Source of the DNA: Candidatus Roizmanbacteria bacterium
Lineage (GTDB): Bacteria > Patescibacteriota > Microgenomatia > UBA1406 > GWC2-37-13
Direction of reading: 5' to 3'
DNA length: 64,000 nt
Assembly (NCBI GenBank): GCA_963845895.1
Contig: CAWJTN010000001.1
Coordinates: 747,063-811,062, forward strand
Shown here: positions 3,250 to 48,878 of the stretch, piece after piece
Numbering within the stretch: position 1 is the stretch's first letter
How the letters are laid out: every line of letters starts with the position of its first letter
The notes under the pieces: model-generated
The model's database searches: none
Told to the model about the DNA's origin: nothing
The model's input: only the letters and a program-made list of their open reading frames with translations
Translations under genes and position numbers: made by a program

Positions 3250-3251
3250 GT

Positions 3252-5212: not shown

Positions 5213-5431
5213 ATGAACGATCAACAGATGCTCAAAATACTGGGAAATAATATCAGGAAGATACGGAAAAAAAGAAAAATATCCCAGCAAAGATTTTCTA
5301 AAACTATAGGGATTGACAGAAGTTATTTTGTAAAAATTGAAAATGGGAAAAAGAATCCTACAGTTGGAATGTTAAAAAAGATAGCGAAAGGACTAGATAC
5401 AAGTGTCAATAAGTTGTGTAAAGATATTTAA
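5213..5431 (+). CDS. XRE-family helix-turn-helix regulator
   Basis: LGNNIRKIRKKRKISQQRFSKTIGIDRSYFVKIENGKKNPTVGMLKKIAKGL is a classic HTH_3 pattern. Confidence 0.85.
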   Translation: MNDQQMLKILGNNIRKIRKKRKISQQRFSKTIGIDRSYFVKIENGKKNPTVGMLKKIAKGLDTSVNKLCKDI

Positions 5432-5460
5432 ACAGGTTATTTAAGCTAAAAACCCACATT

Positions 5461-5488
5461 TTGACAGATACTTTAAACTCCATATAAT
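5461..5488 (+). promoter_or_regulatory. Consensus sigma70-type promoter (TTGACA-N16-TATAAT), copy 2 of a duplicated module
   Basis: TTGACA at 5461-5466 and TATAAT at 5483-5488, about 145 nt upstream of the methyltransferase ATG. Confidence 0.55.
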
Positions 5489-5633
5489 GAGAAAGAAAGG
5501 ACAGGACAAATATTTGAGGATTTGCTAGTAAGATTATTGTAAGAAAAATGTTAAAATAGTGCTTATATGGCCGATATAGACGAGGCGCAAATACTTGACG
5601 AGCGCAGAAGAGGGTTAGAAAGCAGAAATAATT

Positions 5634-6677: not shown

Positions 6678-6754
6678 TTGGAGAGGCAGAGGCCCTGATT
6701 TGAATGGAAGGTCTATTTTTAGAAGAGTTATTCTAAGGCATAAGAAAAAATAAT

Positions 6755-7918: not shown

Positions 7919-7975
7919 GTTAATGAGGTTCTTTGAGAGATTTCTTAATATTTCTAATGAATAAAGAAAATAATT

Positions 7976-9232: not shown

Positions 9233-9268
9233 AAATTATGAAGCAAACCTCATTAATGCAAAAATCAT

Positions 9269-9946
9269 TTAGGGTAGGAAGTCTGTCCTAATTTGTTTCG
9301 CTGGGTTTTTGTCCAAAACCAATACGTAAAAGAGTGGTATTTTGAAAAAGTCCAGTATCCAAATGGATTGGAATGTCTGCGGGACATAGTTTACCCAGTA
9401 AGCAAAAGTGTCTTCTTTAATAACATTCCATTTCGGTGTCTTTGCCATCTCATCTAGATTTAATTCGTGCTCCACCTTTGGAGTGATCCATATGATTTTT
9501 ACTATCCAATTTTCGGGCAACGTGCGGTCGAACTCATGGAAAAATAAGCCCTTAATTATCTTGTTAACAACCCTGTTAATTCTTACTTTATCGGTATCGC
9601 TTATGGTGTACATGGTCATTTTTCCTTTATACAATCCCGACTTGGTGTAAGCGTCCACAAGCTTCATCTGGTTAAACATCTGATGACCAAGAGCAGGTGT
9701 TCTTGTGATGGAGCGTGACACTTCACCATCCATGAGCTTTTTCGCTTCGGGAGATCGCTCCATGAGCATAGAAACGTAGAACTGTCTAAAAAAGCCCTCA
9801 TCCTTCTGGAACCCAGCATTACACTCATTACAGGACGGAACCGTAATGAGGGGTTTATCGGGAATACCCTTGAAAAACTGCTTTGCAGGAATATGTTCTC
9901 TCGTGTCTGCAACCCGTCCACAGAATATACAATCGTTAGTAGTCAT
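9269..9946 (-). CDS. Hypothetical protein with N-terminal HNH/zinc-ribbon-like motif
   Basis: CIFCG..TREHIPAKQFF....VPSCNECN is a CxxC..EH..CxxCN arrangement as in HNH_5-type nucleases. The remaining ~170 aa are unassigned. Confidence 0.5.
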   Translation of the reverse strand: MTTNDCIFCGRVADTREHIPAKQFFKGIPDKPLITVPSCNECNAGFQKDEGFFRQFYVSMLMERSPEAKKLMDGEVSRSITRTPALGHQMFNQMKLVDAYTKSGLYKGKMTMYTISDTDKVRINRVVNKIIKGLFFHEFDRTLPENWIVKIIWITPKVEHELNLDEMAKTPKWNVIKEDTFAYWVNYVPQTFQSIWILDFFKIPLFYVLVLDKNPAKQIRTDFLP

Positions 9947-10145
9947 TGGTTTGATTATTTTTTACTTTTTTCAAAACTTGATCCAGCGAATCGGCGTTGA
10001 GCTTATCTTTCAGTGTACCGAGTTTCATTCGCGGGTTAAATTTTTCTAGAACCGGATAGTCTTTTGCTAAATTACCTACCAAAGAATCGCTCCTCTCCTG
10101 TCGGATTCTACCTTTTTCGGTTTTTGTATGCTTTCCTAGCGCCAT
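9936..10145 (-). CDS. Small hypothetical protein (69 aa)
   Basis: ORF in an operon-like position between the DUF3892 and HNH-like genes. It overlaps the downstream gene by 11 nt. No family recognised. Confidence 0.4.
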   Translation of the reverse strand: MALGKHTKTEKGRIRQERSDSLVGNLAKDYPVLEKFNPRMKLGTLKDKLNADSLDQVLKKVKNNQTNDY

Positions 10146-10177
10146 AAATTATTCACCCCCTCAAACTGGCCTAATTT

Positions 10178-10456
10178 TTAAAGTGGGCATTCATTAAGAG
10201 ATAAAAGATTGTTTGGACTATAACCATCGGCTGTGGTTTTTAAATATTTCCTGCCGTCGTGTACGGCAATAACCACATCAACACTCCTGCCATTTACTAA
10301 AACATAGAAGCTATTGGTACCAGACTCGATTTGTCCGATTACTTCATTTTCACTTAGATGCCATCGCCTTCCATTATGTAAACCACCGAGGCTGAGTATC
10401 CGCTCATGAGGATTGTGATGTTCTCTTTTGTTTATACAGCTGACTTCTACATGCAT
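10178..10456 (-). CDS. DUF3892 domain protein
   Basis: ILSLGG..W.LSENEVIGQIESGTNSFYV..NGRSVDVVIAV..GRKYLKTTADGYSPNNLLSLNECP matches my memory of DUF3892. A strong SD (GGGAGGAGGTG) lies upstream. Confidence 0.65.
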   Translation of the reverse strand: MHVEVSCINKREHHNPHERILSLGGLHNGRRWHLSENEVIGQIESGTNSFYVLVNGRSVDVVIAVHDGRKYLKTTADGYSPNNLLSLNECPL

Positions 10457-10458
10457 TT

Positions 10459-11100
10459 TTACACACCTCCTCCCTGCAAATTTAATTCTGGTTTAAAAAC
10501 GCCAATTGCGACTCCATCTATATTGAATGCTTCATTGACTTGATTTTTTTTAAACACGAAGGGTTCATATTTAGGGTTATACGGTTTAAGAATATATTCA
10601 CTTTCCGTTTCTCTGAAAATTTTCACTGTAAATCCTTCGGCGACGCGGGCGACCACAATGTTGCCAGCCTGGGGCGCCTGATTTTCCTCCATAATAATGA
10701 GATCGCCATCGTCAATTTTTGGAACCATACTGTCTCCAACCGCTTTTACCAGATACAATTGTTTTTTAGAATTGCGTCCGAGGATTCGTAACGGAACAGG
10801 GATCATTTGGATGATATGATCCTCAACGATCTCATTAAGTGGTTGTCCGCAGTGTGCATTTCCCAAGAGTGGCAAAAAAGCAATTGCGGAGCTAGCATCA
10901 GGAGAGTTAACTCGACTGACTTTTCCATCATGACCACGAACGATGAAGCCGTCTTGTTCCAATTTCCGGATATGGTACAAGATAGTATTGGCAGCAAGAC
11001 CGAATTCTTCCCCTAAATCGCGAAGAGAGATCGCCTCACCAGATTCAATTGAAATCTTCAGCCTTTCTAGTATTTTCCGTTGAGTATCGTTCAGTGCCAT
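10459..11100 (-). CDS. LexA/CI-like repressor (winged HTH + S24 autopeptidase)
   Basis: The N-terminal wHTH has LRDLGEEFGLAANTILYHIRKLEQDGFI. AHCGQP sits at the usual AAG cleavage position. GDSMVP carries the catalytic Ser and GFTVKIF the catalytic Lys. Confidence 0.85.
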   Translation of the reverse strand: MALNDTQRKILERLKISIESGEAISLRDLGEEFGLAANTILYHIRKLEQDGFIVRGHDGKVSRVNSPDASSAIAFLPLLGNAHCGQPLNEIVEDHIIQMIPVPLRILGRNSKKQLYLVKAVGDSMVPKIDDGDLIIMEENQAPQAGNIVVARVAEGFTVKIFRETESEYILKPYNPKYEPFVFKKNQVNEAFNIDGVAIGVFKPELNLQGGGV

Positions 11101-11174
11101 TAGTACAGATTATCTAACACATGAAGCGAAAAGTCAAATGAATTCTGAAACCCCATAACGAGGTCAACACAAGG

Positions 11175-11414
11175 ATGTTATACTATCCCTATATGCCCAA
11201 CAAGCAAGACGATAAACCCAAAAAAGATCCAATGTCATTTGGCCTAACCGATCTATTGGATAAATTTAAAGGTACATTTGTAGCTTTAAAGGATGATGAA
11301 AGGACAGTAATTTGTACGGGTGATTCCGCAACTTTCGTAAAGAAGAAGGCTTTAGAAATGGGCTATAAAAACCCGATTATAACCTGTTTAGTAGAAGATC
11401 CTCCGAAAACCTAA
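11175..11414 (+). CDS. Small hypothetical protein, divergent from the repressor
   Basis: 79-aa ORF, or 71 aa from ATG 11199, which lies 8 nt after a TATACT box. No confident family. Confidence 0.45.
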   Translation: MLYYPYMPNKQDDKPKKDPMSFGLTDLLDKFKGTFVALKDDERTVICTGDSATFVKKKALEMGYKNPIITCLVEDPPKT

Positions 11415-11696
11415 AATAAACTTTCGAAATAAATAGTATAGATTAATTTCCTAAGTTAACTTCTTTATCCCCCACTTAGTGAGTCGATCGTTAACAATAA
11501 TGATCTTATAGGATTTTCAAAATAACTCTTAATATTCATCTTTGGACTATTGTAACTTGCAGTATCTCTTGATTTATGTAACTAACTAATGTAATATAGC
11601 ATTCATTATAAGTTAGTATTCAAATACTGCCATGCTGGCGGTATTTTTATTTTCTTTTAAGAAAACGATTTTTCTTAAAGAAGGGGGGTGGAATAT

Positions 11697-12047
11697 ATGA
11701 AAAAGATTACTGCGATTAACGTATTTTTAACTCTCGCCTTTTTTGTCTTTGCTGGTCCCGCGTTTGCCGATACCGCCGGAGTTTCTCAAATCCAAACATT
11801 TATCCAAGGCGTCATTGCAGTTTTAGTAACACTCTCTGGTTTAGTTGCCGCCGGATTTTTTGTATTAGGGGGTGTTGGATACATCACGAGTTCTGGCAAT
11901 CCGGAAGCCTTAGATAAATCTAAGAAAACAATTTTCTATTCGGCAATTGGCCTAGCTATAGTTTTGGGAGCATTCGTTCTCACAAACATTGTTAGTCAAC
12001 TTGCAGGGACGGCTTTTGGGACCAGTACTAATGCGGTGGCTCACTAA
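11697..12047 (+). CDS. TrbC/VirB2-like T4SS pilin
   Basis: Signal peptide (..FAGPAFA/DT), then two hydrophobic helices flanking GYITSSGNPEALDKSKKTI. SD AGGGGGGTGG lies 7 nt before ATG 11697 (the ORF track starts at GTG 11688). Confidence 0.7.
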   Translation: MKKITAINVFLTLAFFVFAGPAFADTAGVSQIQTFIQGVIAVLVTLSGLVAAGFFVLGGVGYITSSGNPEALDKSKKTIFYSAIGLAIVLGAFVLTNIVSQLAGTAFGTSTNAVAH

Positions 12048-12072
12048 TTTAATAGATCTGACTTTTTAACAT

Positions 12073-13374
12073 ATGATGAAAAAGTTGGCTTTTAGCTCTT
12101 TGTGGCTATTTCTTCTTTCAATATTCTTCGTTCATCCTGTTTTGGCCGTAACTACTAGCTCCGAAATTACTCAGTACACCAGTGACACCTTAAGTATCTT
12201 AACGCTCATTGCCTCGGCTGCCGCTGTTTTCTTTCTTATTAAAGGTGGATACGGCTATATGAGTTCAACTGGTAAGCCGGAAGCAATCGAACAAGCCAAA
12301 AAGACAATTAAGAATGCCCTGATTGGTCTGGTTATAGTTCTTGCTGCTGGTTTTATTATCTCTTTCTTTAATGGTGCCTTAACTGGCACAACATCCGGAG
12401 GTGGTGCACCACCCGTCTCTCTCTCCCAGATTGAGTCAGTTAAACCCAGTGACGGGTTGACCCAGGTCTTAATCGATGCAGTGTCATCTTTTATGCAAAA
12501 CATCATCCAGTCAGCCACCAAGCCGATTGTGGACGGGATCATTGGGTTTTTAACGACAACCCCAACGCTCTTGGATAACCAGGTAATTTTCAATTTCTGG
12601 TTAGTGATACTTGGTATTACCGATTCCCTGTTTGCGGTCATCGTTGCCCTGTTAGGTCTCCACTTCATGAGTGCCTCCTCCTTGGGCTATGACGACGTGG
12701 AGTTATCGAAACTGTTACCAAAGATCGGACTAGCCTTCCTGGGAGCCAATGTTTCCTTGTTTTTGGCCAACTATGTCATTCTGACTGCTAATGCTTTGGT
12801 TAAAACCGTCATCTCCTCAACAGGGGGACTAAGTGAAGCTTGGGTGGTCAACGCCATTAATCTTCCGGCTCTCGCCTCCGGCAATATGCCCTTAATTACC
12901 CTGATATTTTTAATTTTGTTTCTCATTTTAGCTGTTGTCCTTCTATTTATGTACATTACCCGTTTGATTATGATTTCCCTGGGCGCGGTGTTATCTCCTT
13001 TGATTTTCCTCCTCTCGATCGTACCAAAGTTTTCCGACTTTGCCGAAATTGCCGTCAAAAGCTATTTTGTCACTGTCTTTATTGTTTTCGTCCACGTGGT
13101 TATTATCCAGTTAGCTTCGTCCTACTTAACTTTCCCTGGACAAACCAACAATTCCCTAATCTCAATTGTGGTTGCGATCGGCCTCTTTTTTACTCTTCTT
13201 AAAATCCCTGGACTTCTTATGCAGATGGTTTTTTATAACTCGGCCAATGGTTTTGTTAGGCATATTGGCCATCAGATCATGAATATGATGAGTACCGATA
13301 ATAGCGCAACCGCAAGCAGGGAAGCAGCCAAGAACGCAGCGGTCAAAACTCCCAGAAAGGTGGTCGCCGCATGA
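12073..13374 (+). CDS. Pilin-like N-terminal module fused to a VirB6/TrbL-like polytopic membrane domain
   Basis: Residues ~1-100 repeat the pilin layout, including GYGYMSSTGKPEAIEQAKKTI. At least 6 further TM helices follow. Confidence 0.6.
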   Translation: MMKKLAFSSLWLFLLSIFFVHPVLAVTTSSEITQYTSDTLSILTLIASAAAVFFLIKGGYGYMSSTGKPEAIEQAKKTIKNALIGLVIVLAAGFIISFFNGALTGTTSGGGAPPVSLSQIESVKPSDGLTQVLIDAVSSFMQNIIQSATKPIVDGIIGFLTTTPTLLDNQVIFNFWLVILGITDSLFAVIVALLGLHFMSASSLGYDDVELSKLLPKIGLAFLGANVSLFLANYVILTANALVKTVISSTGGLSEAWVVNAINLPALASGNMPLITLIFLILFLILAVVLLFMYITRLIMISLGAVLSPLIFLLSIVPKFSDFAEIAVKSYFVTVFIVFVHVVIIQLASSYLTFPGQTNNSLISIVVAIGLFFTLLKIPGLLMQMVFYNSANGFVRHIGHQIMNMMSTDNSATASREAAKNAAVKTPRKVVAA

Positions 13375-13814
13375 GAACGACTGTTATTCCCGCCCAGATC
13401 ACAACTGTTGAGGATAAGATTGCCGGAAGCCTTAACTTAACTCAGATTATGATTCTCATGGTTCCTGTTTTTTGGACTACCGCTGTCTATACAATCTTTT
13501 CTCCCGCCATGCATTTAGCCTGGTACAAGATACCTGTAATTTTAATTGTTCTGTTTGCCTGCCTAATCCTCTCCCTTCGCATCAAAGGTAAGGTGCTCGT
13601 TGAGTGGTTACTGGTTCTTGCCAAATACTATGGCCGACCAAAATATTATCTTTTCAACAAAAACGATTCCTATCTTCGTAGCCTTGATCTTCCAGTGTTT
13701 GAGAAAAAAACAATAACGTTTCCAAAATTAAACCCAGTAAGAAATGAAGTTAAAAAGACTAGTTCCTGCATCAAGCATCGCGGATTTTGTCAAATTGGAA
13801 AATATTATTGGTAA
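13371..13814 (+). CDS. PrgI/VirB3-like small membrane protein
   Basis: IPAQITTVEDKIAGSLNLTQIMILMVPVF followed by two TM helices. An ATGA start/stop overlap links it to the upstream gene. Confidence 0.55.
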   Translation: MRTTVIPAQITTVEDKIAGSLNLTQIMILMVPVFWTTAVYTIFSPAMHLAWYKIPVILIVLFACLILSLRIKGKVLVEWLLVLAKYYGRPKYYLFNKNDSYLRSLDLPVFEKKTITFPKLNPVRNEVKKTSSCIKHRGFCQIGKYYW

Positions 13815-13861
13815 TTCCAAATACAGCGTGAGTTTTAAATCAGAAAAGAAAGGAGGCATCA

Positions 13862-14482
13862 ATGTGGCTTTTGAACAGGTCAAGAAATAGCGTAAGTTCC
13901 CGGCGTCAGATCCAGATAAAGGAGGTCAAAGACTCTATTCTTATTCTCCCCAACAACCAATACCGGATTATTCTGGAGACTTCTTCAATCAATTTTGAGT
14001 TGAAAAGTGAGGAGGAACAAGACGTTTTAATAGATTCCTTCCAAAACTTTTTAAATTCGCTACCGTGTCAGCTACAGATAGCAATCAAGGTCCGCGAAGT
14101 TGACATTGACCGGTATCTGGAACAAATCGGACAAACCGCCACTCATGAGAAAGAAACGGTCTATAAGGATCAGATCGTAAACTACTGCCAATTTATTAAA
14201 TCTATGGTCTCAGGCAACAAAATCTTATCACGCCGGTTTTACGTTGTTATTCCTTATCACCATACCGAACGAAAAACCGATTTTCAGCTTATTAAAGAAC
14301 AAATCAACCTCAATAGGGATATCGTCATGCGGGGATTGGAGAAACTAGGGATGAAAGCCAGACAACTGGACAGTTTGGAAATTTTGGATCTTTTCTACAG
14401 TTTCTACAATTCAAGCCAAGTTAAAACCCAGGAGTTGAAGGGCCAAACTATTCAGATGCTTTTACAAAACAACTATGTTTAA
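13862..14482 (+). CDS. VirB4-family ATPase, N-terminal domain encoded as a separate ORF
   Basis: IQIKEVKDSILILPNNQYRIILETSSINFELKSEEEQDVLIDSFQNFLNSL is the usual start of Gram-positive-type VirB4/TraE proteins. SD AAAGGAGG lies 5 nt upstream. Confidence 0.7.
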   Translation: MWLLNRSRNSVSSRRQIQIKEVKDSILILPNNQYRIILETSSINFELKSEEEQDVLIDSFQNFLNSLPCQLQIAIKVREVDIDRYLEQIGQTATHEKETVYKDQIVNYCQFIKSMVSGNKILSRRFYVVIPYHHTERKTDFQLIKEQINLNRDIVMRGLEKLGMKARQLDSLEILDLFYSFYNSSQVKTQELKGQTIQMLLQNNYV

Positions 14483-16304
14483 TTTAGAAAATATTAAAAA
14501 TCGTTTGTATCATAAAAAATCAAAAAAGCGAAGAACTTCCAACAAGGAAGTTCTTAAAAAGCCTTTGCAGTTTAATTATGGTGAACAGGACCAGGTTGAT
14601 ATGATCTCCTACTCCGGCATACACGAAGATGCTTCATATCTTCAAATGGGTGACAAGTTTGTGAGAACTCTTTTTATCTCCGGTTACCCCTATGTCGCCT
14701 CAACCGGCTGGCTTAATATGCTTATAAACTTTAACCATAATGTAGACATTTCCTATCACATCGAGCAAGTGGACCCACTCATGGCTCTCCCTAAACTCAA
14801 TAGGAAAATAACCGAGCTTGAGTCAACCAAACGAACGATGCTTAAAGCTGGCAAAGTCATCGGCTCGGAAATCACTGATCCTCTTGAATCTGCGATGGAG
14901 CTAAAAGACAAAATACAACGAGGACAGGAGAAATTGTTTCAAGTCTCCATTTATATAACCATAACAAGCGATAACCTTACAGACTTAAATAAACTAACTA
15001 CCGTTTTGGAAACCCTCATGTCAACCCGTCTTTTTTACATTAAAACCGCCACTTTTCAACAATTGGAAGCTCTCCAATCGACGTTACCCCGAGCTGAGAA
15101 TCTTCTGGCTCAGAAACGGAATTTAGACAGCTCCTCAGCTGCCTTAACCTTCCCCTTTGTTTCCTCAGAACTGGTCCAGGAATCCGGGATTTTATACGGA
15201 ATCAACAAATCGAATAATTCTTTGGTTATGGTCGACAGATTCAGTTTGAACAATGCCAACAGTATTATTTTCGCCCAATCAGGAAGCGGTAAAAGCTATA
15301 CTGCCAAAGTCGAGATACTTCGCCAGCTCATGCAGGGAACAAAAGTAATCGTAATCGATCCAGAACGGGAATATAAACAATTAACTTCATCAGTCAATGG
15401 TACCTATATCAAACTTTCCGTCAAATCCAAAGAAAAAATCAACCCCTTTGATTTTTCCATCAGTTCCTATTCAGACGAAAACGATTTAGCAGAACACATT
15501 CAGGACTTAACCGAAATTGTCTCTCTTATGGTCGGCGGATTAAGTACCGAGGAGAGAGCGGTCATCGATAAGGCCCTTCTTCAAACCTATAAAGACCATG
15601 GTTGGACGATGTATTACTCCTATACTCCTAAAGTTAATCGAGATCCGAGAGGCCGAAAGTTAAGACCAAAATCTTATCCTTTGCTTAAAGACTTTTACCA
15701 GACCTTAAGGAAGATGAAACAAAAAGACTTGTGTAACCGTTTGGAACGGTTTGTCAAAGGTTCCCTCTCGACTGTTTTTGACTCGCAAACAAATATCGAG
15801 CTCAATAACCGTTTAGTTATCTTTGACATTAAAGATCTAAACGAATCCTTGAGACAAATTATGATGTTAGTTATTGCCAATTTTGTCCATTCGCAGGTCA
15901 AGACCAAACCGCAAAAGCGAATCCTTCTTATTGATGAGGGTTGGATGCTTCTTCAAGAGGAGGAAAGCGCTCGGTTTATCTCAGGGTTAGTCAGACGTGC
16001 CAGAAAATATTATCTCGGAGTCACTATCATTTCCCAACAGGCCAATGATTTCTTAAACCAGGAATATGGACGGGCCATAGCTTCCCAGTCATCACTTCGC
16101 ATCCTAATGAAGCAGGACACAACAACTATTAAAAAAGTCACCCAAGAGTTTAATTTAAGTGAATACGAACAGCATTATTTATTAACCTGTGATCGAGGAG
16201 AAGCCTTGATTATTGCCGATCAAAACCATGTGGCTCTAAAGGTGGTTGCCTCTGAAAAAGAACATCCGCTTTTAACTACCGATCCTAGGGAAATTTACCT
16301 GTAA
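14475..16304 (+). CDS. VirB4-family T4SS ATPase (middle + ATPase domains)
   Basis: Has GDKFVRTLFISGYPYVASTGWL, Walker A AQSGSGKSYT and Walker B ILLIDEGW. An 8-nt overlap (ATGTTTAA) links it to the N-terminal ORF. Confidence 0.85.
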   Translation: MFNLENIKNRLYHKKSKKRRTSNKEVLKKPLQFNYGEQDQVDMISYSGIHEDASYLQMGDKFVRTLFISGYPYVASTGWLNMLINFNHNVDISYHIEQVDPLMALPKLNRKITELESTKRTMLKAGKVIGSEITDPLESAMELKDKIQRGQEKLFQVSIYITITSDNLTDLNKLTTVLETLMSTRLFYIKTATFQQLEALQSTLPRAENLLAQKRNLDSSSAALTFPFVSSELVQESGILYGINKSNNSLVMVDRFSLNNANSIIFAQSGSGKSYTAKVEILRQLMQGTKVIVIDPEREYKQLTSSVNGTYIKLSVKSKEKINPFDFSISSYSDENDLAEHIQDLTEIVSLMVGGLSTEERAVIDKALLQTYKDHGWTMYYSYTPKVNRDPRGRKLRPKSYPLLKDFYQTLRKMKQKDLCNRLERFVKGSLSTVFDSQTNIELNNRLVIFDIKDLNESLRQIMMLVIANFVHSQVKTKPQKRILLIDEGWMLLQEEESARFISGLVRRARKYYLGVTIISQQANDFLNQEYGRAIASQSSLRILMKQDTTTIKKVTQEFNLSEYEQHYLLTCDRGEALIIADQNHVALKVVASEKEHPLLTTDPREIYL

Positions 16305-16311
16305 TACATGA

Positions 16312-16929
16312 ATGAATCCGAAAATTATCATTACTCTGTGGTCCTTCCGGCGTGAGCTGAAGTACGTTTTGTTAGCTTTCCTTATTCTTCTTTCCCTCCC
16401 AGTAATTGCCGTCGTTATCCTCATGAACGCTGGATTTAATGTGGTTTCGGATAAGTTGGTAACTGTTAACACCAATACTCAAAGCGTTCAACTTCGTGAT
16501 CCCAAAGACGGTTCAGTGATCAAAGAAATTAAACCCATTGTTTCCTGGCCCGTAGCCGGGGTTGTAACACTGGAATTCGGACAAATTGACCTACCGTATC
16601 AACCTTTTCATACCGGTATTGATATTGCCAATCCCCAGGGACAAATTGGTGATCCGATTCATCCATTCATGAACGGAACTGTAATTTATGCCGGGGAAAT
16701 CTTCTGGGGGTTTGGGAAACACGTCTTAATTGATAATGGTAACAATATTACGTCCATTTATGCTCATTTGGATAAAATCTATGTTTATCCGGGTGAAAAG
16801 GTAACTATAAACGATGTTATTGGGAAGGAAGGAGAGACCGGTTGGGCGACAGGACCCCATCTTCATTTTCAGATTGATGTTTTTGGGATACCGGTTAATC
16901 CAAGGACGTTTTTAGGAGAAGGAAATTAA
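16312..16929 (+). CDS. M23 (LytM-type) peptidoglycan hydrolase
   Basis: HTGIDIA, SIYAHLDKIYVYPGEKV and GETGWATGPHLHFQI motifs, with an N-terminal TM anchor. Confidence 0.9.
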   Translation: MNPKIIITLWSFRRELKYVLLAFLILLSLPVIAVVILMNAGFNVVSDKLVTVNTNTQSVQLRDPKDGSVIKEIKPIVSWPVAGVVTLEFGQIDLPYQPFHTGIDIANPQGQIGDPIHPFMNGTVIYAGEIFWGFGKHVLIDNGNNITSIYAHLDKIYVYPGEKVTINDVIGKEGETGWATGPHLHFQIDVFGIPVNPRTFLGEGN

Positions 16930-19657: not shown

Positions 19658-21037
19658 ATGCATCCTCAAAATTTTACTCTAAAAAACGGTCTTCGGGTAA
19701 TTCTAATAGATACTAAAGCCTTTCCAACAATGACTACGATACTTCTTATTGGGGCAGGATCCAGATATGAGAATGAAAAAAACAATGGGGTTGCCCACTT
19801 TTTTGAACATATGGCCTTTAAGGGTTCGAAAAAATATCCTAACTTTTTTATAATCTCTTCCATACTGGAAGGGATGGGAGCTTATCATAACGCCTTTACC
19901 TCAAAAGATCATACAGGTTACTGGGTAAAGGCCCCGACAGTTCACTTCGAAAAAATAATAGATGTTCTATCTGATATGGTTTTAAACCCTTTACTTAAGC
20001 AAGAAGAGATTGAAAAAGAAAGAAATGTGATTGTTGAAGAGATGAATATGCGTGAAGATAATCCGCAAGGAAGGGTTGGCGAGTACTTTGAGGAGTTACT
20101 TTATAAAGGTAATCCTTTAGGCTTCGATGTTATAGGTTCAAAAGAAACTGTTGCAGGCTTTAAGAGACAAACCTTTGTTGACTATATGAATAGTCTTTAT
20201 AACCCGAAAAATGCGGTTTTAGTTGTTGCCGGCGGATTAGCTGATGCTGATAAAGCTCGTTACCGTGTTTCTCACTTTAATAGGAACACCCCTTCAAAAA
20301 TCATCGGCTCCTTAAAAAGTTCGAAACAGGTATCTTCGCTTTATAATTATTATTTTAAAATCATTGAGAAAAAATTTGCTAATTGGTCTCGTGTAGGGAC
20401 GACTCTTGGGTCGCCCTTTCAGAAGGTCGTCGAAAGACAAAATAAACCCCAGTTATTTATTAAATACAAAAAGACCGAGCAGACACATTTTATTTTAGGT
20501 TTTAGGACTTTTTCTTTTTTTGATCCAAGAAGGTATGCTCTTGCGGTTTTAACTACAATATTGGGCGGCGGTGCTTCTTCAAAATTGTTTATCGAAGTAA
20601 GAGAAAAAAGAGGACTTTGCTACTATATTTATAGCGGACGTGAACTTTATCAAGATGTAGGTTACATCAGTTCCCAGGCAGGCGTTACTAACAACTTAGA
20701 TAAGATAAAAGAGGCCATAACAACAATAATGGTTGAACATAAGAAATTGGCAAAGGGTGAGTTGAACAAAAGCGATCTGTCTCGGGCCAAAGAGATTCTA
20801 AAAGGAAGAACTCTTTTGTCTATGGAAGACTCTTCAAATATTGCGTCTTTTTATGGAACCAAACAGTTGCTTGAGAATAAAATTGAGGGAGTAGGTGAGG
20901 TAATAAAAAAAATCGAGGCTGTAAAAGGAGACGAAGTTGTAGATCTGGCAAAGGAGATATTTAGAGCTGAAAGGTTAAATTTTGCTTTGATTGGGCCTTT
21001 TGAGGAAGAAAACTTTAAGAATATAATTAATTTTTGA
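19658..21037 (+). CDS. M16 (pitrilysin/insulinase) family zinc peptidase
   Basis: GVAHFFEHMAFKGS is an HxxEH zinc motif, and the protein has the two-lobed M16 length. ATG 19658 is preferred over TTG 19652. The gene contains a repeat-derived in-frame insert. Confidence 0.9.
   Translation: MHPQNFTLKNGLRVILIDTKAFPTMTTILLIGAGSRYENEKNNGVAHFFEHMAFKGSKKYPNFFIISSILEGMGAYHNAFTSKDHTGYWVKAPTVHFEKIIDVLSDMVLNPLLKQEEIEKERNVIVEEMNMREDNPQGRVGEYFEELLYKGNPLGFDVIGSKETVAGFKRQTFVDYMNSLYNPKNAVLVVAGGLADADKARYRVSHFNRNTPSKIIGSLKSSKQVSSLYNYYFKIIEKKFANWSRVGTTLGSPFQKVVERQNKPQLFIKYKKTEQTHFILGFRTFSFFDPRRYALAVLTTILGGGASSKLFIEVREKRGLCYYIYSGRELYQDVGYISSQAGVTNNLDKIKEAITTIMVEHKKLAKGELNKSDLSRAKEILKGRTLLSMEDSSNIASFYGTKQLLENKIEGVGEVIKKIEAVKGDEVVDLAKEIFRAERLNFALIGPFEEENFKNIINF
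20261..20342 (+). repeat. In-frame copy of a repeat segment inside the M16 peptidase gene
   Basis: TACCGTGTTTCTCACTTTAATAGGAACACCCC..GGCTCCTTAAAAAGTTCGAAACAGGTATCTTCGCTTT aligns with intergenic 21105-21178. Confidence 0.6.
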
Positions 21038-21039
21038 TA

Positions 21040-21216
21040 GGTGGCGAGAAGAAAGGGATCCCTTTCAGGGTGAACCCGACAGCGCGCATGAAGGGAAAGT
21101 TTGATACCGTTTTTCTCGCTTAATAGGAACACCCCCTATTCGGGCTCCTTAAAAGCTCGAAAAAGGTATCTGCTCTTTCCTGAAGAGCACTGGCGGGAAT
21201 GAATTCGAGGCAGAAT
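21040..21216 (-). repeat. GC-rich palindromic element, long form (inner element with expanded loop)
   Basis: The reverse complement starts ATTCTG..TCCCGCCAGTGCTC and ends GCGCGCTGTCGGG..CCACC, like 22061-22135. About 100 extra nt lie between the stem arms. Confidence 0.6.
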
Positions 21217-21235
21217 CTATCAAAAATTTAAAATT

Positions 21236-22021
21236 ATGCTTTATATATTTTTATTTATCTTAGGTTTAGCAATAGGTTCATTTCTTAACGTTTTAATCGA
21301 TCGTTTGCCAAAAGAAGAATCGATTACCGGACGTTCGCACTGTGACTATTGTAAAAAAAAACTGACGTGGTTGGATCTTATCCCCATCTTATCTTTCCTT
21401 TACCTGGGAGGTAGATGTCGCTATTGCGGAAAAAAATTATCTTACTTTTACCCATTTGTTGAGTTAGTTACAGGTATTTCGTTTGTTCTAATTGGGTTAT
21501 ATCTTGGGAACAAGGGAAGTATAGAAAATCAAGCTCTTCAACTTGTTGCACTGCTTGGGATAGTTTCTTGTTCTATTGTTGTTTTCTTTTCAGATTTTAA
21601 ATATCAGATTATCCCAGACAGCATTCAGATAGGATTGTTTATTTTTTCGGCGATTGAGAAAATAACGGTTATAAAAGTTATAACAGTTATAAATGTTATA
21701 GAGGTCCTCAAAGAAGGTCTCAGTGGGGGACTAGTCGTCATGTTACCGATCCTTTTGCTTTTTTTAGTTACAAAGACTAAGGGTATGGGTTTTGGTGATG
21801 TCAAACTTGCCTTTACGATAGGATTTTTATTGGGATTCTTAAATGGTTTTGCGGCTTTATACATTGGATTTATTATTGGGGCTGTAGTTGGACTATGTCT
21901 TATTTTACTTGGAAGGAAAAAGATGAAAAGCAAAATTGCGTTCGGACCTTTTCTGGTTTTAGGCCTATTAATTATGCTAATCTGGGGAGATCAGGTGTTT
22001 TCTCTAATTGATAAAATTTAA
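21236..22021 (+). CDS. Prepilin peptidase (A24 family, PilD/ComC-type)
   Basis: GSFLNVLIDRLP..GRSHCDYCKKKL..DLIPILSF..GRCRYCGKKL and GFGDVKL motifs. Confidence 0.9.
   Translation: MLYIFLFILGLAIGSFLNVLIDRLPKEESITGRSHCDYCKKKLTWLDLIPILSFLYLGGRCRYCGKKLSYFYPFVELVTGISFVLIGLYLGNKGSIENQALQLVALLGIVSCSIVVFFSDFKYQIIPDSIQIGLFIFSAIEKITVIKVITVINVIEVLKEGLSGGLVVMLPILLLFLVTKTKGMGFGDVKLAFTIGFLLGFLNGFAALYIGFIIGAVVGLCLILLGRKKMKSKIAFGPFLVLGLLIMLIWGDQVFSLIDKI
21668..21703 (+). repeat. 4 x 9-nt in-frame tandem repeat (GTTATAANN)
   Basis: gttataaaa gttataaca gttataaat gttatagag encodes VIK VIT VIN VIE. Confidence 0.8.
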
Positions 22022-22031
22022 CCCTTCTAGA

Positions 22032-22163
22032 GGTTATTTCAAAACCTCTGATCTTGTCAGATTCTGTTGCGATTTTCCCTCCCGCCAGTGCTCACTTCGT
22101 TGCGCGCTGTCGGGATCCCTTCTAATCGCACCACCTGTCATTAATAGAAGTAGGTTTTGAAAT
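22032..22163 (+). repeat. Nested palindromic element: outer element with 12-nt terminal inverted repeats, enclosing the 75-nt GC-rich inner element (22061-22135)
   Basis: ATTTCAAAACCT (22036-22047) is the reverse complement of AGGTTTTGAAAT (22152-22163). The same ends recur at 45224-45306. Confidence 0.65.
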
Positions 22164-24480: not shown

Positions 24481-32295
<7,815 letters not shown>

Positions 32296-32297: not shown

Positions 32298-33926
32298 TCA
32301 TTTTGTTAGTTCAACCTTGACAAAAGTAAGATCATAAGGATATTTCTTGTTTAATTTTACAGGTTTAAAGTCAAACAGTTTATTTACGGTTTCGCACTCC
32401 TGAGGAAATTGTTTACATTCAGGCGGAGGAGGAAGTGAGTAGACAGGAATACCTTTTTTTAAAGAATTGACTACAAAGTCTTGGGTAGTTTTATCATTTA
32501 AAAAAGTAGATAAAAAAGTAGTAGATCGATCTTTCATGAGAGTATAGGCCGTAATATTGTTTATAATGATCGAGTTTGAAGGTGTGTTGGGGATAATATA
32601 GTTGGCTAAAAAGTCGTGATTGACCACCGGTACAATCTCAACTAAATTGAAGTAGGCTGAGGTCGAGATCATCGATCTATATTTAATTATTGTTGGTATT
32701 AGAGTTAAAAAAATTAATATGAGTAATAATCTATAGGGCCACTTCTTTTTCTGGACCACTTCTTTTAAGGACATACCGGAAAGAATTAACAGAGGAGGAA
32801 TAAGAATTAAAAAAAATCTCCCGTAGGATCCTGAGAATTCCAAAGTAAAAAACATACCAGCATAGTATGAAGAGTAGACTATAAAAAAAACAACAAGCCA
32901 GATAGCTAAAAGTAAGATCTTTCTATTTTCCATTTTGACCAGAGAAATGAGTGCAAGAAGAGAAATAAAGAAAGGAAACTCTCTCCTATTAAATAAGTTA
33001 AAAATATTTGGTAACAGATTCCTGATAAAATAACTTGGATAAAATGCTTCAAGTGGAAGGGCCTCTGCGCAGCACCATTGTTTACCAATTACAGAAATTG
33101 AAGCTAGAGCTCGAACCGAAATTGATATTAGAAGAATAAAGCCGAAAATAAAATCTAGTCGATTCAATTTTATTCGGAAGTTTCCTGGTTTTTTATTTTC
33201 GTTTCGAAGCGAAATGAAAATTAAGCCAAAGATTGGTAGAAATAAAAAAGCCTCGAGTCTGACACAGAGGAGCAAAAAAATAGAGGAGATAAGTAAGATA
33301 CCACTTTTAACGTCCGGATGTTTTGCATACCAGCAGGTTGCCACGACGGCTAAAAGAGCAAATGTGAGGAAGTAAGAATCAAGTCCTAGAGAGGTAGCAA
33401 AGAAAACAGGAGTGGGCAAAAAGGCCATACCGAAAGCAGAAAATAGGGCGATAAAATAATCTTGAAAAAAAAGCCAACAGAAGATAAAGATAAAAACTAT
33501 CTGAAGACTGCTTATAAGCTTTGCAGCGACAAAAAGATTATACTCATTGTAGCCGAAGAGTTTGAAATTCCAGGCATTAATTATAGGAACAGTTAACCTA
33601 ACCGTTTGATCGGGAAATCCCTCAATCAATTTCTTGCTTGTAGCCGTCAAGATAGACTTGGCTTCACCGAAGCGGGCAAAGGTGACAGAATAGGTCAGGT
33701 ATCTGTCTTCGTCATAATAGATTCGATGGGTAAATGGAGTCCAGAAATATCTTACAAGCACTCCTGCAAGGATGAAAGCTGCGAGTAACAGCGTGACTCG
33801 TTTAGGAAGTTTAAAAAAGGAAAAAATTAGTTGCGGAAGTATTAATAAAGATACGAGGATAGTTATGATCAGGGCAATGGTTATAAGCCAAGGCAAAAAA
33901 ACGGCCAAAAAATATTCGGCAGACAT
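32298..33926 (-). CDS. GT-C-like polytopic membrane glycosyltransferase (ArnT/PMT-like)
   Basis: More than 10 TM helices. The first loop, RIYYDEDRYLTY, resembles the DExRY loop of ArnT-type enzymes. Confidence 0.6.
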   Translation of the reverse strand: MSAEYFLAVFLPWLITIALIITILVSLLILPQLIFSFFKLPKRVTLLLAAFILAGVLVRYFWTPFTHRIYYDEDRYLTYSVTFARFGEAKSILTATSKKLIEGFPDQTVRLTVPIINAWNFKLFGYNEYNLFVAAKLISSLQIVFIFIFCWLFFQDYFIALFSAFGMAFLPTPVFFATSLGLDSYFLTFALLAVVATCWYAKHPDVKSGILLISSIFLLLCVRLEAFLFLPIFGLIFISLRNENKKPGNFRIKLNRLDFIFGFILLISISVRALASISVIGKQWCCAEALPLEAFYPSYFIRNLLPNIFNLFNRREFPFFISLLALISLVKMENRKILLLAIWLVVFFIVYSSYYAGMFFTLEFSGSYGRFFLILIPPLLILSGMSLKEVVQKKKWPYRLLLILIFLTLIPTIIKYRSMISTSAYFNLVEIVPVVNHDFLANYIIPNTPSNSIIINNITAYTLMKDRSTTFLSTFLNDKTTQDFVVNSLKKGIPVYSLPPPPECKQFPQECETVNKLFDFKPVKLNKKYPYDLTFVKVELTK

Positions 33927-33928
33927 AT

Positions 33929-36834: not shown

Positions 36835-36872
36835 AACTCATATTATAGAGTATTCATGTTAGAATTTAAGGT

Positions 36873-38765: not shown

Positions 38766-38789
38766 CGGGTAAATAGGTGTAAAAAACAC

Positions 38790-39690: not shown

Positions 39691-39691
39691 G

Positions 39692-41557: not shown

Positions 41558-41565
41558 TTTTTAAA

Positions 41566-43472: not shown

Positions 43473-44255
43473 CTAAAAATTTTTACCAATGACGATTTCC
43501 CTTAAAAGATAATAGATAAATTTTAAGCCGGTGGGAATTGCAGATGCTCCGCTCTTACCTCCAATTCTTTGTCCTTCAACTGTTGGGATTTCAGCGATTT
43601 TTAATCCTAATTTTAAAGCACGGATCGTCATCTGGTACTCGATGGCAAAACCCTCCGCATCAAGATGGAGTTTGTTGAAGGAACTTTTTTTAATTGCACG
43701 GTAACCATTTATAGAATCGGTAATTGAACTTTTTGCTAGATTCTGTCCCGAGTTTCCCTCCCGCCAGTGCTCACTTCGTTGCGCGCTGTCGGGAGCCCTT
43801 CCACTCGTGCCACCTAGCAAAAAATTATTCCACAAGATATTTGCTAGCAACGTAAATCCCTGGTTTGCCCATTTGCGAAACTTCAAAAGCTTGTGATCCT
43901 CTTCGTTTTTTGATCCTTTTTTAAAACGCGAAGCGATTGCCAAATCATAACCTTTAGTCAAAATATTAATCAATTTTGGAATATCAGCTGGGTTTTCATT
44001 GCCGTCTGGACTAAAAAAAATTAGAATGTCTCCTTTTGCTTTTTTTGCACCAATTCTAAAAGCTTCCGCACGTCCGGGTTTTTTTTGTTTAACAATGGGT
44101 ATCTTATTTTTTTTAAAAAATTCAACGGTTCCGTCGGTTGAGTTGTAGTCTACAGCAAAATATTCATCAACGCTAGAGAAAGGGATTTTTTTTATGAGTT
44201 TTTTGAGACCAGAGATTTCATTGCGGGTTAAGATAATGAGAGTTGATTTAATCAT
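43473..44255 (-). CDS. Family-2 glycosyltransferase carrying an in-frame repeat-element insertion
   Basis: LIILTRNE..AVDYNSTDGT..ILIFFSPDGNE. The GC-rich segment translated as GGTSGRAPDSAQRSEHWREGNSGQN interrupts the conserved region before ITDSINGYRAI. ATG 44255 is preferred. Confidence 0.8.
   Translation of the reverse strand: MIKSTLIILTRNEISGLKKLIKKIPFSSVDEYFAVDYNSTDGTVEFFKKNKIPIVKQKKPGRAEAFRIGAKKAKGDILIFFSPDGNENPADIPKLINILTKGYDLAIASRFKKGSKNEEDHKLLKFRKWANQGFTLLANILWNNFLLGGTSGRAPDSAQRSEHWREGNSGQNLAKSSITDSINGYRAIKKSSFNKLHLDAEGFAIEYQMTIRALKLGLKIAEIPTVEGQRIGGKSGASAIPTGLKFIYYLLREIVIGKNF
43740..43814 (+). repeat. 75-nt GC-rich palindromic inner element inserted inside a GT2 coding sequence
   Basis: ATTCTGTCCCGAGTTTCCCTCCCGCCAGTGCTCACTTCGTTGCGCGCTGTCGGGAGCCCTTCCACTCGTGCCACC has the same length and core as 22061-22135. 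It is flanked by TAG on both sides. Confidence 0.7.
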
Positions 44256-45223: not shown

Positions 45224-45306
45224 GGTTATTTCAAAACCTCTGATCTTGTTAGATTCTGTCCCCGCTGAGCGGGGCCACCTGTCATAAATAGAAGTAGGTT
45301 TTGAAT
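45224..45306 (+). repeat. Short form of the nested palindromic element (outer ends + 27-nt minimal hairpin)
   Basis: GGTTATTTCAAAACCTCTGATCTTGTTAG-ATTCTGTCCCCGCTGAGCGGGGCCACC-TGTCATAAATAGAAGTAGGTTTTGAA. Confidence 0.6.
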
Positions 45307-48871: not shown

Positions 48872-48878
48872 GAATCTA

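What the first reader, a model, noticed from the sequence alone, without database searches (positions are those of the whole stretch)
21040..22163. Nested GC-rich palindromic repeat family (MITE/REP-like) with compensatory stem changes between copies
The inner element ATTCTG..CCACC occurs in four forms. Two are 75 nt (22061-22135 and 43740-43814). One is a 27-nt minimal hairpin (45253-45279, CCCCGC-TGA-GCGGGG). One is 177 nt, on the other strand, with a ~100-nt loop expansion (21040-21216). The core stem is CCCGCCAGTGC/GCGCTGTCGGG, with 9 WC pairs, 1 GU and 1 mismatch. A second stem differs between copies but stays complementary: TGCGATT/AATCGCA in copy 22061, CCCGAGT/ACTCGTG in copy 43740. 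Two copies sit inside a longer outer element bounded by 12-nt perfect inverted repeats (ATTTCAAAACCT / AGGTTTTGAAAT; 22032-22163 and 45224-45306). That implies element-within-element insertion. All intergenic copies abut gene ends directly: the M16 stop, the prepilin peptidase stop and the epimerase start. The GC-rich composition contrasts sharply with the AT-rich host DNA.
Basis: seen in the sequence. Interest (0 to 1): 0.7.

Follow-up and report, generated by a model that had tools for sequence, protein, structure and literature searches.

The report
Mobile hairpin repeat in CPR bacteria
A family of roughly 80-100-bp GC-rich hairpin-forming repeats has spread through the small AT-rich genomes of Microgenomates (candidate phyla radiation) bacteria, landing between genes and, in frame, inside genes; it behaves like selfish DNA similar to the Rickettsia palindromic elements, not like a functional RNA.

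Summary
The window holds four copies, plus one doubtful relic, of a GC-rich hairpin repeat. Pattern and covariance-model searches recover 94 distinct copies in about 27 species-level MAGs and 66 metagenome contigs. Nearly all hosts are Microgenomates-group CPR bacteria (Roizmanbacteria and relatives). Viral, phage, plasmid and Rfam searches found nothing.

The unit is an asymmetric core, AG-ATTCTG...CCAC-CT, mostly 76-105 nt. Stems P2 and P4 covary; the imperfect stem P3 is conserved. About three quarters of copies are closed by their own 5-16-bp inverted repeat (P1) of host-like composition. Cores 94-98% identical sit in unrelated P1 arms. In transketolase and Tgt one arm is conserved native coding sequence, so the other arm is a templated inverted copy.

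One third of copies (33/94), including 43738-43815 in a GT2 gene, lie in frame inside genes in either orientation. Intergenic copies show no orientation bias relative to transcription.

I read this as a selfish, DNA-level hairpin repeat that works like Rickettsia palindromic elements. It fails the defining features of MITE, REP/RAYT, attC and RNA genes. The mobilising enzyme is unknown; fold-back or template-switch copying is my inferred mechanism. I found no prior description.

The parts
21039..21218 (-). Copy 1, long form (180-nt core AG...CT): family ends and the conserved P3 stem, with an apex expanded by a nested element. It lies between the M16 peptidase stop codon (21035-21037, inside the closing stem) and the prepilin peptidase start codon (21236).
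   Evidence: RNA fold z=-5.5; 44.7 bits
21027..21038 (.). P1 arm of copy 1 (AATTTTTGATAG on the + strand), pairing with 21219-21230.
   Evidence: 12-bp perfect extension
21219..21230 (.). The other P1 arm of copy 1 (CTATCAAAAATT on the + strand).
21103..21171 (-). Nested second hairpin element (AGATACC...GGTATC, 69 nt) in the apex of copy 1. It has its own short inverted flanks (GGAAAG / CTTTCC). Relatives sit in the same apical position in loci L003 and L012.
22059..22136 (+). Copy 3, standard 78-nt core, downstream of the prepilin peptidase stop (22021).
   Evidence: (91.1 bits)
22032..22163 (+). Long closing hairpin ('outer element') around copy 3. The 12-nt inverted repeat ATTTCAAAACCT/AGGTTTTGAAAT plus imperfect pairing in between. 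Shared with the 45224 copy.
43738..43815 (+). Copy 2, standard 78-nt core. It lies in frame inside the GT2 glycosyltransferase ORF 43473-44261(-), antisense to the gene, and is read as GGTSGRAPDSAQRSEHWREGNSGQN.
   Evidence: (99.7 bits)
43727..43826 (+). Copy 2 with its P1 arms (TTTTTGCTAG / CTAGCAAAAA, 11-13 bp). The whole ~96-nt hairpin is absent from the 9 insert-free GT2 homologs among the 11 aligned.
45251..45280 (+). Copy 4, minimal 30-nt core: the family ends are kept and P2-P3-P4 are replaced by CCCCGC-TGA-GCGGGG. Probably an internal-deletion derivative.
   Evidence: 30.3 bits, E=4e-6 with filters off
45224..45306 (+). Long closing hairpin around copy 4, the same as at 22032. It lies between the aminotransferase stop and the epimerase start codon (45216).
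33039..33111 (-). Possible decayed fifth copy inside ORF 32298-33926(-). Marginal.
   Evidence: (15.2 bits, E=0.09)

Best explanation
The four sequences are copies of an undescribed family of non-coding, hairpin-forming, GC-rich repeat elements. The family has proliferated in Microgenomates-group CPR bacteria.

The unit that is copied is the asymmetric core: 5'-AG ATTC TG (Y) - P2 - pyrimidine-rich internal loop - P3 (CCCGCCAGTGCTC / GCGCGC(G)TGTCGGG) - variable apex P4 - ... - CA C CT-3'. It acts at the DNA level as selfish DNA. It has no coding capacity. It survives wherever it does no harm: in the short intergenic spacers, or in frame in surface loops and linkers of proteins, where it is translated like the Rickettsia palindromic elements.

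At or soon after insertion, the element's own terminal stem serves as a fold-back primer-template (equivalently, a quasipalindrome template switch during replication). A short stretch of one flank is copied in inverted orientation onto the other side. This gives each copy a private closing stem, P1. The same templated correction keeps all stems strictly Watson-Crick and can flip the core in place.

Shown: the anatomy, the distribution, in-frame residence, per-copy P1, and that one arm is native. Inferred: mobility through single-stranded hairpin DNA, the fold-back origin of P1, and a trans-acting factor that recognises the conserved ends and P3. The enzyme, if there is one, is unidentified.
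For: Dispersal
- 45 real loci in genome contigs and 66 in metagenomes.
- The covariance model R1 scores the top strand at 43-103 bits and the opposite strand at 18.5 bits or less.
- This gives 94 distinct copies.

Presence and absence
- Most GT2 homologs listed are 224-237 aa against 260 aa, and the 9 of these aligned lack the ~32-aa segment.
- In the syntenic DegT-epimerase-GT2 cluster, locus L048 carries a copy at a different junction.
- Deleted or decayed remnants are present at the tgt site.

DNA level rather than RNA level
- 33/94 copies are in frame inside ORFs: 14 sense, 19 antisense.
- Intergenic copies between tandem genes are 10 co-directional and 12 anti-directional with transcription.
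- Both strands fold as DNA, z -2.2 to -5.6.
- One-sided G-U changes number 0-2 per pair, against 5-18 double changes per variable pair.
- There is no Rfam match.

Core as the copied unit, P1 private to each copy
- Five pairs of copies have 94-98% identical cores and unrelated, perfectly complementary P1 arms.
- P1 arms are 37% GC, like the host; the core is 59% GC.
- P1 extends 5-16 bp in ~70 copies, against mostly 0-5 bp when flanks are re-paired at random.
- Pre-existing palindromes of that size are at chance level: none with arms of 9 or more in the 64-kb window.

One arm is native
- All 34 element-free transketolases for which the linker could be read keep a K/E/S/A-P dipeptide there, encoded in element-bearing genes by the arm GAAACC. 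The downstream GGTTTC exists only in element-bearing genes.
- Many element-free Tgt proteins keep H-R or Y-K at the site, and that R is the CGT codon inside the arm CGTGCG; the mirror CGCACG follows the core.

Flip in place
- The same P1 and a visibly similar core occur in opposite orientations at the transketolase site: L005/L045/L055 versus L023, P0247, P0248 and P0252.

Template switching at quasipalindromes is an established replication error mechanism (PMC7202029).
Against: - No transposase, HUH/Y1 enzyme or recombinase was found next to any copy. The window holds only a fragment with an rve_3 integrase domain. No copy carries an ORF in its loop.
- No filled/empty allele pair at nucleotide resolution was obtained, so mobility is inferred from distribution.
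- In four orthologous tgt copies the element is 62-74% identical in nucleotides (gapped alignment). Flanking third codon positions, compared without gaps, are 33-44% identical. Blocks of the core are therefore evolving more slowly than neutral sequence, which a purely decaying selfish insert does not predict.
- About 20 copies (the 'TTCC class') have no P1. Their flanks look like a short direct repeat instead (..GTTCC|AG...CT|GTTCC..). The fold-back model does not explain this.
- In the GT2 case both arms look extra relative to homologs.
- 30 of 33 intragenic copies share one codon phase. This needs selection on the encoded peptide, or something not understood.
Confidence: 0.6

Rival explanations
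1. A structured RNA, either a small RNA gene family or a cis-acting mRNA element such as a terminator, stabiliser or ribozyme. On this reading its stems are kept by selection on the RNA fold.
For: There is strong pairing and covariation: 92% of cells are paired, and 14 of 27 pairs show double changes. Unpaired blocks are conserved, along with an invariant U.G pair. RNA fold z-scores are -5.5 and -3.8. Core blocks are conserved in orthologous copies beyond neutral expectation.
Against: No Rfam family matches even at E up to 10. There is no orientation preference relative to transcription: 10 versus 12 for intergenic copies, 14 versus 19 for intragenic ones. One third of copies sit inside coding sequence and are read through. 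G-U intermediates are almost absent. The closing stem is made from the local flank. No T-run follows the hairpin.
Confidence: 0.1
2. A DNA site used by the host, for example a binding or loading site for a nucleoid, replication or DNA-uptake protein. This would be comparable to the roles proposed for REP/BIME elements or uptake sequences, and the site would be kept by selection or by uptake-biased drive.
For: An orientation-independent, dispersed, asymmetric conserved core is what a double-stranded DNA binding site would look like. Core blocks are conserved at orthologous tgt sites despite saturated synonymous divergence. Some intergenic positions are shared between genomes: upstream of pgk, tgt and dnaJ.
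Against: Many lineages have lost or degraded the copy at the same site without replacement. Copy positions differ between related genomes. Density is low, about 1 per 16 kb in the window. No candidate binding protein was found. Insertions into essential enzymes are hard to see as placed for function.
Confidence: 0.15
3. A conventional non-autonomous transposon (MITE, or an IS200/IS605- or RAYT-mobilised hairpin) moved by a transposase encoded elsewhere in these genomes. On this reading P1 arises afterwards.
For: The termini are conserved (YAG ATTCTG ... CCAC CTR). A conserved imperfect hairpin (P3) is the kind of feature that Y1/HUH enzymes recognise (general knowledge of IS608 and REP/RAYT). 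The TTCC-class flanks resemble a 4-5-bp target duplication.
Against: The two ends are not inverted repeats of each other. No transposase lies near any of 94 copies and no autonomous relative has the same 5' end in 185,579 species genomes. There is no marked strand bias using gene orientation as a proxy. Direct repeats are absent from about 70 of 94 copies.
Confidence: 0.12
4. An RNA-level removable insert: a mini-intron or a translational bypass element like the mitochondrial byps.
For: It is a GC-rich hairpin in an AT-rich genome and lies inside genes.
Against: All 33 copies scored as intragenic are, by the criterion used, stop-free and in the host frame, and they occur in both orientations. 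Every tightly flanked intergenic copy that I checked by eye (5 of them) is followed by a normal gene start.
Confidence: 0.02

Closest known systems
Rickettsia palindromic elements (RPEs)
   Same: Both are short palindromic repeats in a reduced genome. Both are found between genes and very often in frame inside unrelated housekeeping genes, where they are translated. Neither has a coding capacity or a known transposase (PMC10969869, citing Ogata et al.). Here 33/94 copies are in frame.
   Different: The host phylum is unrelated. This element is GC-rich in an AT-rich genome. It is shorter (76-105 versus ~150 bp) and has an asymmetric, strongly conserved core. Both orientations and several reading frames are used, so there is no single conserved peptide. 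About three quarters of the copies have a private flank-derived closing stem, and copies can flip in place. Sequence relatedness to RPEs was not tested.
REP / REPIN elements mobilised by RAYT (TnpA-REP) transposases
   Same: Both are imperfect GC-rich palindromes with a short conserved 5' motif. Both are multi-copy and fold as single-stranded DNA hairpins.
   Different: REPs are extragenic, short (20-40 nt), often occur in inverted doublets, and come with a RAYT gene flanked by REPs. Here one third of copies are intragenic, the copies are single long hairpins, and no Y1/HUH gene was seen.
Bacterial MITEs (Correia, ERIC, RUP, Nezha and others)
   Same: All are small, non-coding, dispersed and able to form hairpins. 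Occasional in-frame fusions are known (PMC10969869).
   Different: MITEs have conserved terminal inverted repeats inherited from a parent IS, and direct target-site duplications. Here only YAG...CTR is shared. The rest of the closing stem differs in every copy and is an inverted copy of the flank, not a direct one.
Quasipalindrome template-switch mutagenesis, and flip/flop hairpins of parvovirus termini
   Same: Templated copying across a hairpin makes imperfect inverted repeats perfect, extends them, and can invert an asymmetric centre (PMC7202029; the flip/flop part is from general knowledge). This matches the strict Watson-Crick stems, the flank-derived P1 and the flipped core at the transketolase site.
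   Different: Those are mutational or replicative processes, not a family of dispersed elements. Their link to the spread of this element is my inference.
Mobile GC clusters and byp elements of yeast mitochondria
   Same: Both are GC-rich palindromic clusters scattered in a very AT-rich genome, including inside protein genes (general knowledge).
   Different: Byps are skipped by the ribosome and need not be in frame. Here every intragenic copy is in frame and stop-free.

Membership tests
Rickettsia palindromic elements | Palindromic repeat able to form a stable hairpin, present in many copies | tested here: met
Rickettsia palindromic elements | Frequent in-frame residence inside unrelated protein-coding genes | tested here: met
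   33/94 copies; GT2, Tgt, transketolase, Fmt and others
Rickettsia palindromic elements | Sequence homology to an RPE family, with Rickettsia as host | not tested
   No RPE sequences were on hand. The hosts here are CPR bacteria. It is therefore filed as 'works like', not as a member.
MITE | Conserved terminal inverted repeats shared by all copies and by a parent IS | tested here: not met
   Only YAG...CTR is shared. The ends ATTCTG and CCAC are not complementary. Outer arms differ in every copy.
MITE | Direct target-site duplication | tested here: inconclusive
   Absent in ~70 copies, whose flanks are inverted. About 20 'TTCC-class' copies have flanks resembling a 4-5-bp direct repeat.
REP/REPIN-RAYT | Strictly extragenic location | tested here: not met
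REP/REPIN-RAYT | Associated RAYT (Y1 transposase) gene flanked by the repeats | tested here: inconclusive
   None in the 64-kb window or in about 0.8 Mb of loci around copies. Whole genomes could not be scanned.
IS200/IS605-derived hairpin elements (PATEs) | Separate subterminal hairpins at both ends, insertion 3' of a fixed tetra- or pentanucleotide, and strand bias with replication | tested here: not met
   A single long hairpin. The base before the core is only constrained to Y. No orientation bias relative to genes. Replication direction itself was not testable.
Integron attC site | R''/R' core sites RYYYAAC / GTTRRRY and location at cassette ends next to an integrase | tested here: not met
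   By eye, the GTTRRRY consensus fits only the 45251 copy of the four in the window. The context is housekeeping genes.
Any Rfam RNA family | Score at or above the family's gathering threshold | tested here: not met
   0 matches over the window. Only chance-level matches at E up to 10 around two copies.
Translational bypass (byp) elements / introns | The insert breaks the reading frame or carries stop codons and must be skipped or spliced | tested here: not met
   All 33 copies scored as intragenic are open and in frame by the criterion used, and they occur in both orientations.

The most novel reading that the evidence does not exclude
The element may spread without a classical transposase, through replication template switching onto a hairpin. 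In that case it would be the first described family whose insertions create an inverted, rather than direct, duplication of the target flank, and which can flip in place. Alternatively, its slowly evolving asymmetric core may be a structure-specific DNA or RNA signal that CPR cells actually use.
Probability: 0.2. Interest if true: 0.8.

Novelty: new variant of a known kind. Interest (0 to 1): 0.6.

Why it matters
CPR bacteria have tiny genomes (about 1 Mb) and are usually described as poor in mobile DNA. Here a hairpin repeat, together with several other palindromic families seen at the same protein loops, has repeatedly been written into essential enzymes: Tgt, transketolase, Fmt and glycosyltransferases.

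- This gives a source of new peptide segments in proteins.
- It is a cause of length variation that will confuse annotation and alignment of CPR proteins.
- It gives a marker for tracking lineages.
- The flank-derived closing stem offers a concrete, testable case of templated (fold-back) sequence creation linked to a dispersed element.
- It is a warning that strong 'covariation' can arise from DNA palindrome mechanics without any RNA function.

Tried and rejected
- **Rfam and tRNA/tmRNA scans:** nothing found, with Rfam run at both gathering and E-value thresholds.
- **SRP RNA origin:** P3 resembles helix 5 of E. coli 4.5S RNA from memory. No SRP match appeared in Rfam, and no SRP gene was in the loci to compare. 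Dropped as unsupported.
- **Intron or ribosomal bypass:** rejected, because all intragenic copies are in frame and occur in both orientations.
- **Integron attC:** rejected on consensus and context.
- **Insertion into pre-existing palindromes:** rejected as the general rule. Such palindromes are at chance level and one arm is native coding sequence.
- **P1 inherited with the element and evolving by compensation:** rejected as the general rule. Near-identical cores carry unrelated arms. The window's copies 1 and 2, and copies 3 and 4, do share arms.
- **Search for a transposase:**
  - Pfam scans covered the window ORFs of 110 aa or more that did not lie inside a longer ORF.
  - I clustered 1,041 ORFs (open stretches of at least 80 codons) from the window and the 46 genome-scan loci.
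  - This turned up only ordinary genes and one rve_3 fragment.
- **Search for an autonomous copy:** I looked for a 5' half without a nearby 3' half. The only such cases were four chance matches (L013, L057, L110, L116).
- **Viral contigs, phage records, plasmid records:** no copies.
- **Literature:** searches for the motif and for CPR palindromic or MITE elements found nothing relevant.
- **Exact-protein look-ups for the window's own genome:** these failed, so a whole-genome census of the source organism was not possible.
Full report
**1.

- The two halves of the conserved stem, TCCCGCCAGTGCTC and TGCGCGCTGTCGGG, each occur exactly three times in the window.
- The two 75-nt copies are 88% identical over 83 nt.
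- The minimal copy and the 26-nt outer sequence have chance expectations of 0.01 and 0.
- The window is 39.7% GC and the copies are 50-70% GC.
- A covariance model run without filters finds these four copies and only one marginal extra, at 33039-33111(-) with E=0.09.

**2. It is a large family in CPR bacteria**

I scanned one genome per species with AGATTCTG-N(8-22)-CCCGCCAGTGCTC. This gave 46 loci, of which 45 are real (L013 is a chance match in a coding sequence).
- The loci come from about 27 assemblies.
- Most are named Candidatus Roizmanbacteria, Microgenomates group or Patescibacteria.
- Several third-party MAGs labelled 'uncultured Gammaproteobacteria' carry Tgt and transketolase proteins 66-79% identical to the Microgenomates ones. 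I take those labels to be wrong.
- One 'Saccharibacteria' contig carries an element and 225 nt of downstream flank identical to a Roizmanbacteria contig of the same study (L006 = L034).

The same pattern in metagenome contigs gave 69 loci, 66 of them real. Viral contigs, phage records and plasmid records gave none. Rfam gave no match.

A covariance model built from 35 copies scores the top strand at 43-103 bits and the reverse strand at 18.5 bits or less. Pooled and de-duplicated, there are 94 distinct copies in 83 loci.

**3. Anatomy**

Every copy starts with AG and ends with CT. The base before is a pyrimidine and the base after is a purine in 92 of 94 copies. Reading the top strand, the parts are:
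1. AG/CT closing pairs.
2. An asymmetric internal loop (ATTC opposite C).
3. TG/CA pairs.
4. A 6-7-bp stem, P2.
5. A pyrimidine-rich internal loop.
6. The conserved imperfect stem P3, with an invariant T.G pair and a C.T mismatch.
7. A variable apex, P4, of 8 to about 170 nt.

Core length is mostly 76-105 nt, with a range of 30-180.

Pairing is strongly supported. 92.2% of cells pair, against 77.5% in shuffles. There are 177 double-change cells against 58+-7 in shuffles and 28-42 in slid controls. One-sided G-C to G-U changes are almost absent, at 0-2 per pair. That is unusual for an RNA and expected for inverted repeats made by copying. Both strands fold as DNA, with z from -2.2 to -5.6.

**4. 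Where copies sit**

Thirty-three of 94 copies lie inside long ORFs, stop-free and in frame: 14 in the sense orientation and 19 antisense.

In the window, copy 43738-43815 lies in a GT2 glycosyltransferase.
- The PDB relative 5mlz aligns on both sides of a ~33-residue surplus.
- Most homologs listed are 224-237 aa, and the 9 of these aligned lack about 32 residues there.

Other hosts include Tgt, transketolase, Fmt and membrane proteins.

Intergenic copies are squeezed between genes, often within 1-30 nt of a stop or start codon. Among those between tandem genes, 10 are co-directional with transcription and 12 are anti-directional. The five tightly flanked intergenic copies that I read by eye are followed by normal gene starts. 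A strand-specific RNA role is therefore unlikely, and an intron or bypass reading is not needed.

Thirty of the 33 intragenic copies share one codon phase, with the first A of the core as third codon base. That is more than the availability of open frames predicts. I attribute this to selection on the encoded peptide, but it is not explained.

**5. The closing stem P1 is private to each copy and comes from the flank**

- Outside AG/CT, about 70 copies have 5-16 bp of flank complementarity, with a mode of 7-9. Randomly re-paired flanks give mostly 0-5.
- The arms are 37% GC, like the host. The core is 59% GC.
- Five pairs of copies have cores 94-98% identical but completely unrelated, perfectly complementary arms. 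One pair is on a single contig, L018.
- Pre-existing targets of that kind are not available. The 64-kb window has five zero-spacer palindromes with arms of 7 or more and none with arms of 9 or more, which is the chance level.
- In transketolase, all 34 element-free homologs for which the linker could be read keep a K/E/S/A-P dipeptide (mostly KP) at the site. In element-bearing genes these codons are the arm GAAACC, and its mirror GGTTTC follows the core.
- In Tgt, many element-free homologs keep H-R or Y-K. The R codon lies inside the arm CGTGCG, and CGCACG follows the core.

So one arm is native and the other is a templated inverted copy.

At the transketolase site the same arms hold the core in one orientation in L005/L045/L055. 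They hold it in the opposite orientation in L023 and in proteins P0247, P0248 and P0252. This is a flip in place.

**6. Dynamics**

The loop of Tgt between RCIKH and NQYLYG ranges from 45 to 100 residues across CPR homologs. It holds full-length copies, internally deleted copies, minimal copies, a footprint that keeps only the 3' end, and several other palindromic families. The GT2 loop likewise holds other, AT-rich palindromic inserts in the two closest homologs.

Chimeric copies, such as L030 with P2 arms from two subfamilies, indicate exchange between copies.

The 177-nt window copy carries a second hairpin element (AGATACC...GGTATC) in its apex, as do two copies in another genome. Nesting is therefore real.

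In four orthologous tgt copies the element is 62-74% identical by gapped alignment, while flanking third codon positions compared without gaps are 33-44% identical. Parts of the core thus change more slowly than neutral sequence.

**7. Mechanism**

Shown:
- It is a dispersed, non-coding hairpin.
- It is tolerated in spacers and in frame in proteins.
- It is independent of transcription direction.
- It has a flank-derived private stem.

Inferred:
- The core is copied as DNA.
- Its terminal stem places the 3' end opposite the upstream flank, so a polymerase copies a few bases of flank in reverse. This is fold-back priming, or equivalently a quasipalindrome template switch (PMC7202029).
- The same process keeps the stems Watson-Crick and can invert the centre.

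Whether a dedicated enzyme recognises the conserved ends and P3 is unknown. No transposase lies near any copy, no copy has an ORF in its loop, and the window contains only an rve_3 fragment.

Not explained:
- About 20 copies without P1, whose flanks look like ..GTTCC|AG...CT|GTTCC...
- The GT2 case, where both arms look extra.
- The codon-phase bias.
- The slow evolution of the core blocks.

**8. Comparison and verdict**

It works like the Rickettsia palindromic elements, with frequent in-frame insertion of a palindromic repeat into housekeeping genes (PMC10969869). It sits in an unrelated phylum and differs in three ways: an asymmetric GC-rich core, use of both orientations, and a templated private closing stem. 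It fails the defining features of MITEs, REP/RAYT elements, IS200/IS605 derivatives, attC sites and all Rfam families (see the membership table).

I found no description of it in the searchable literature. I rate it a new variant of a known kind, of moderate to good interest. My confidence is 0.6 that it is selfish DNA-level hairpin repeat. My confidence in the fold-back mechanism specifically is lower.

Noticed in passing
window 47292-47437 and 47982-48171: Another palindromic repeat family (GTCATTGCGAG...GAAGCGAAGCAATCTCT...) flanks a 129-aa ORF (47441-47830) that has no Pfam match. It occurs as inverted copies on both sides. Judging by the translated peptides only (VISSEAKQSREI...STSVEMT), the same family may appear in frame in the Tgt loop of other CPR genomes.
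   Followed up: partly
Tgt loop (proteins P0121-P0240), GT2 loop (L047, L048), transketolase (L005, L023): The same permissive protein loops hold many different palindromic repeat families in different CPR lineages, for example VIPVKTGIQ...IPASAGMT, VGAQFIAPK...NHAPT and AT-rich KFKI/NLKN types. In-frame palindromic inserts appear to be a general feature of CPR proteins.
   Followed up: partly
L003, L011, L012, L015, L019, L021, L028, L030, L031, L035, L036, L039, L082, L084, L087, L098, L113: The 'TTCC class' of copies has no closing stem beyond CAG/CTG. Its flanks are pyrimidine-rich and look like a direct repeat (..YTCC|AG...CT|GYTCC..). One such copy (L087) has a core 95% identical to a copy with a normal inverted flank (L009).
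   Followed up: partly
33 intragenic copies (window 43738-43815 and loci): 30 of 33 in-frame copies have the first base of the core at codon position 3, in both orientations. This is more than stop-codon avoidance predicts.
   Followed up: partly
window 24481-32295: A 2,604-aa ORF is made largely of 9-nt (Gly-X-Y, collagen-like) tandem repeats. It accounts for most GC-rich islands and repeat families D1/D2 in the window.
   Followed up: no
window 48843-62302: Five consecutive paralogous large secreted-protein genes share signal-peptide-like N-termini, dockerin, beta-propeller and glycoside-hydrolase-type domains, and Thr/Pro-rich linkers.
   Followed up: no
window, among the 22 ORFs scanned together (1147-16929, 32298-42678, 48843-62302); positions not resolved: Mobile and defence-type genes are present: TraG P-loop and TrbC/VirB2 pilins, a fragment with an rve_3 integrase domain, an EcoRI-type adenine methylase and a GmrSD-type endonuclease domain. 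The scan was done on the ORFs as a batch, so I did not determine which ORF carries which domain. None is linked to the repeat.
   Followed up: no
L015, L030, L047, L048 flanks: An AT-rich short tandem-like motif (TTTTGATTTTTGATATTT and variants) recurs next to copies in several genomes. It is translated inside the GT2 loop of L047.
   Followed up: no
L006 versus L034; L042; 'uncultured Gammaproteobacteria' MAGs (e.g. L005, L014, L016, L043): Taxonomic labels of several public MAG contigs look wrong. L006 and L034 share an identical element and 225 nt of downstream flank but are binned as Saccharibacteria and as Roizmanbacteria. 'Gammaproteobacteria' contigs carry Microgenomates-type Tgt and transketolase.
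   Followed up: partly
transketolase linker (proteins P0241-P0360): Element-bearing transketolases have a linker only 9-13 residues longer than element-free ones, although the insert adds about 33 residues. About 20 residues of native linker are therefore missing where the element sits.
   Followed up: no
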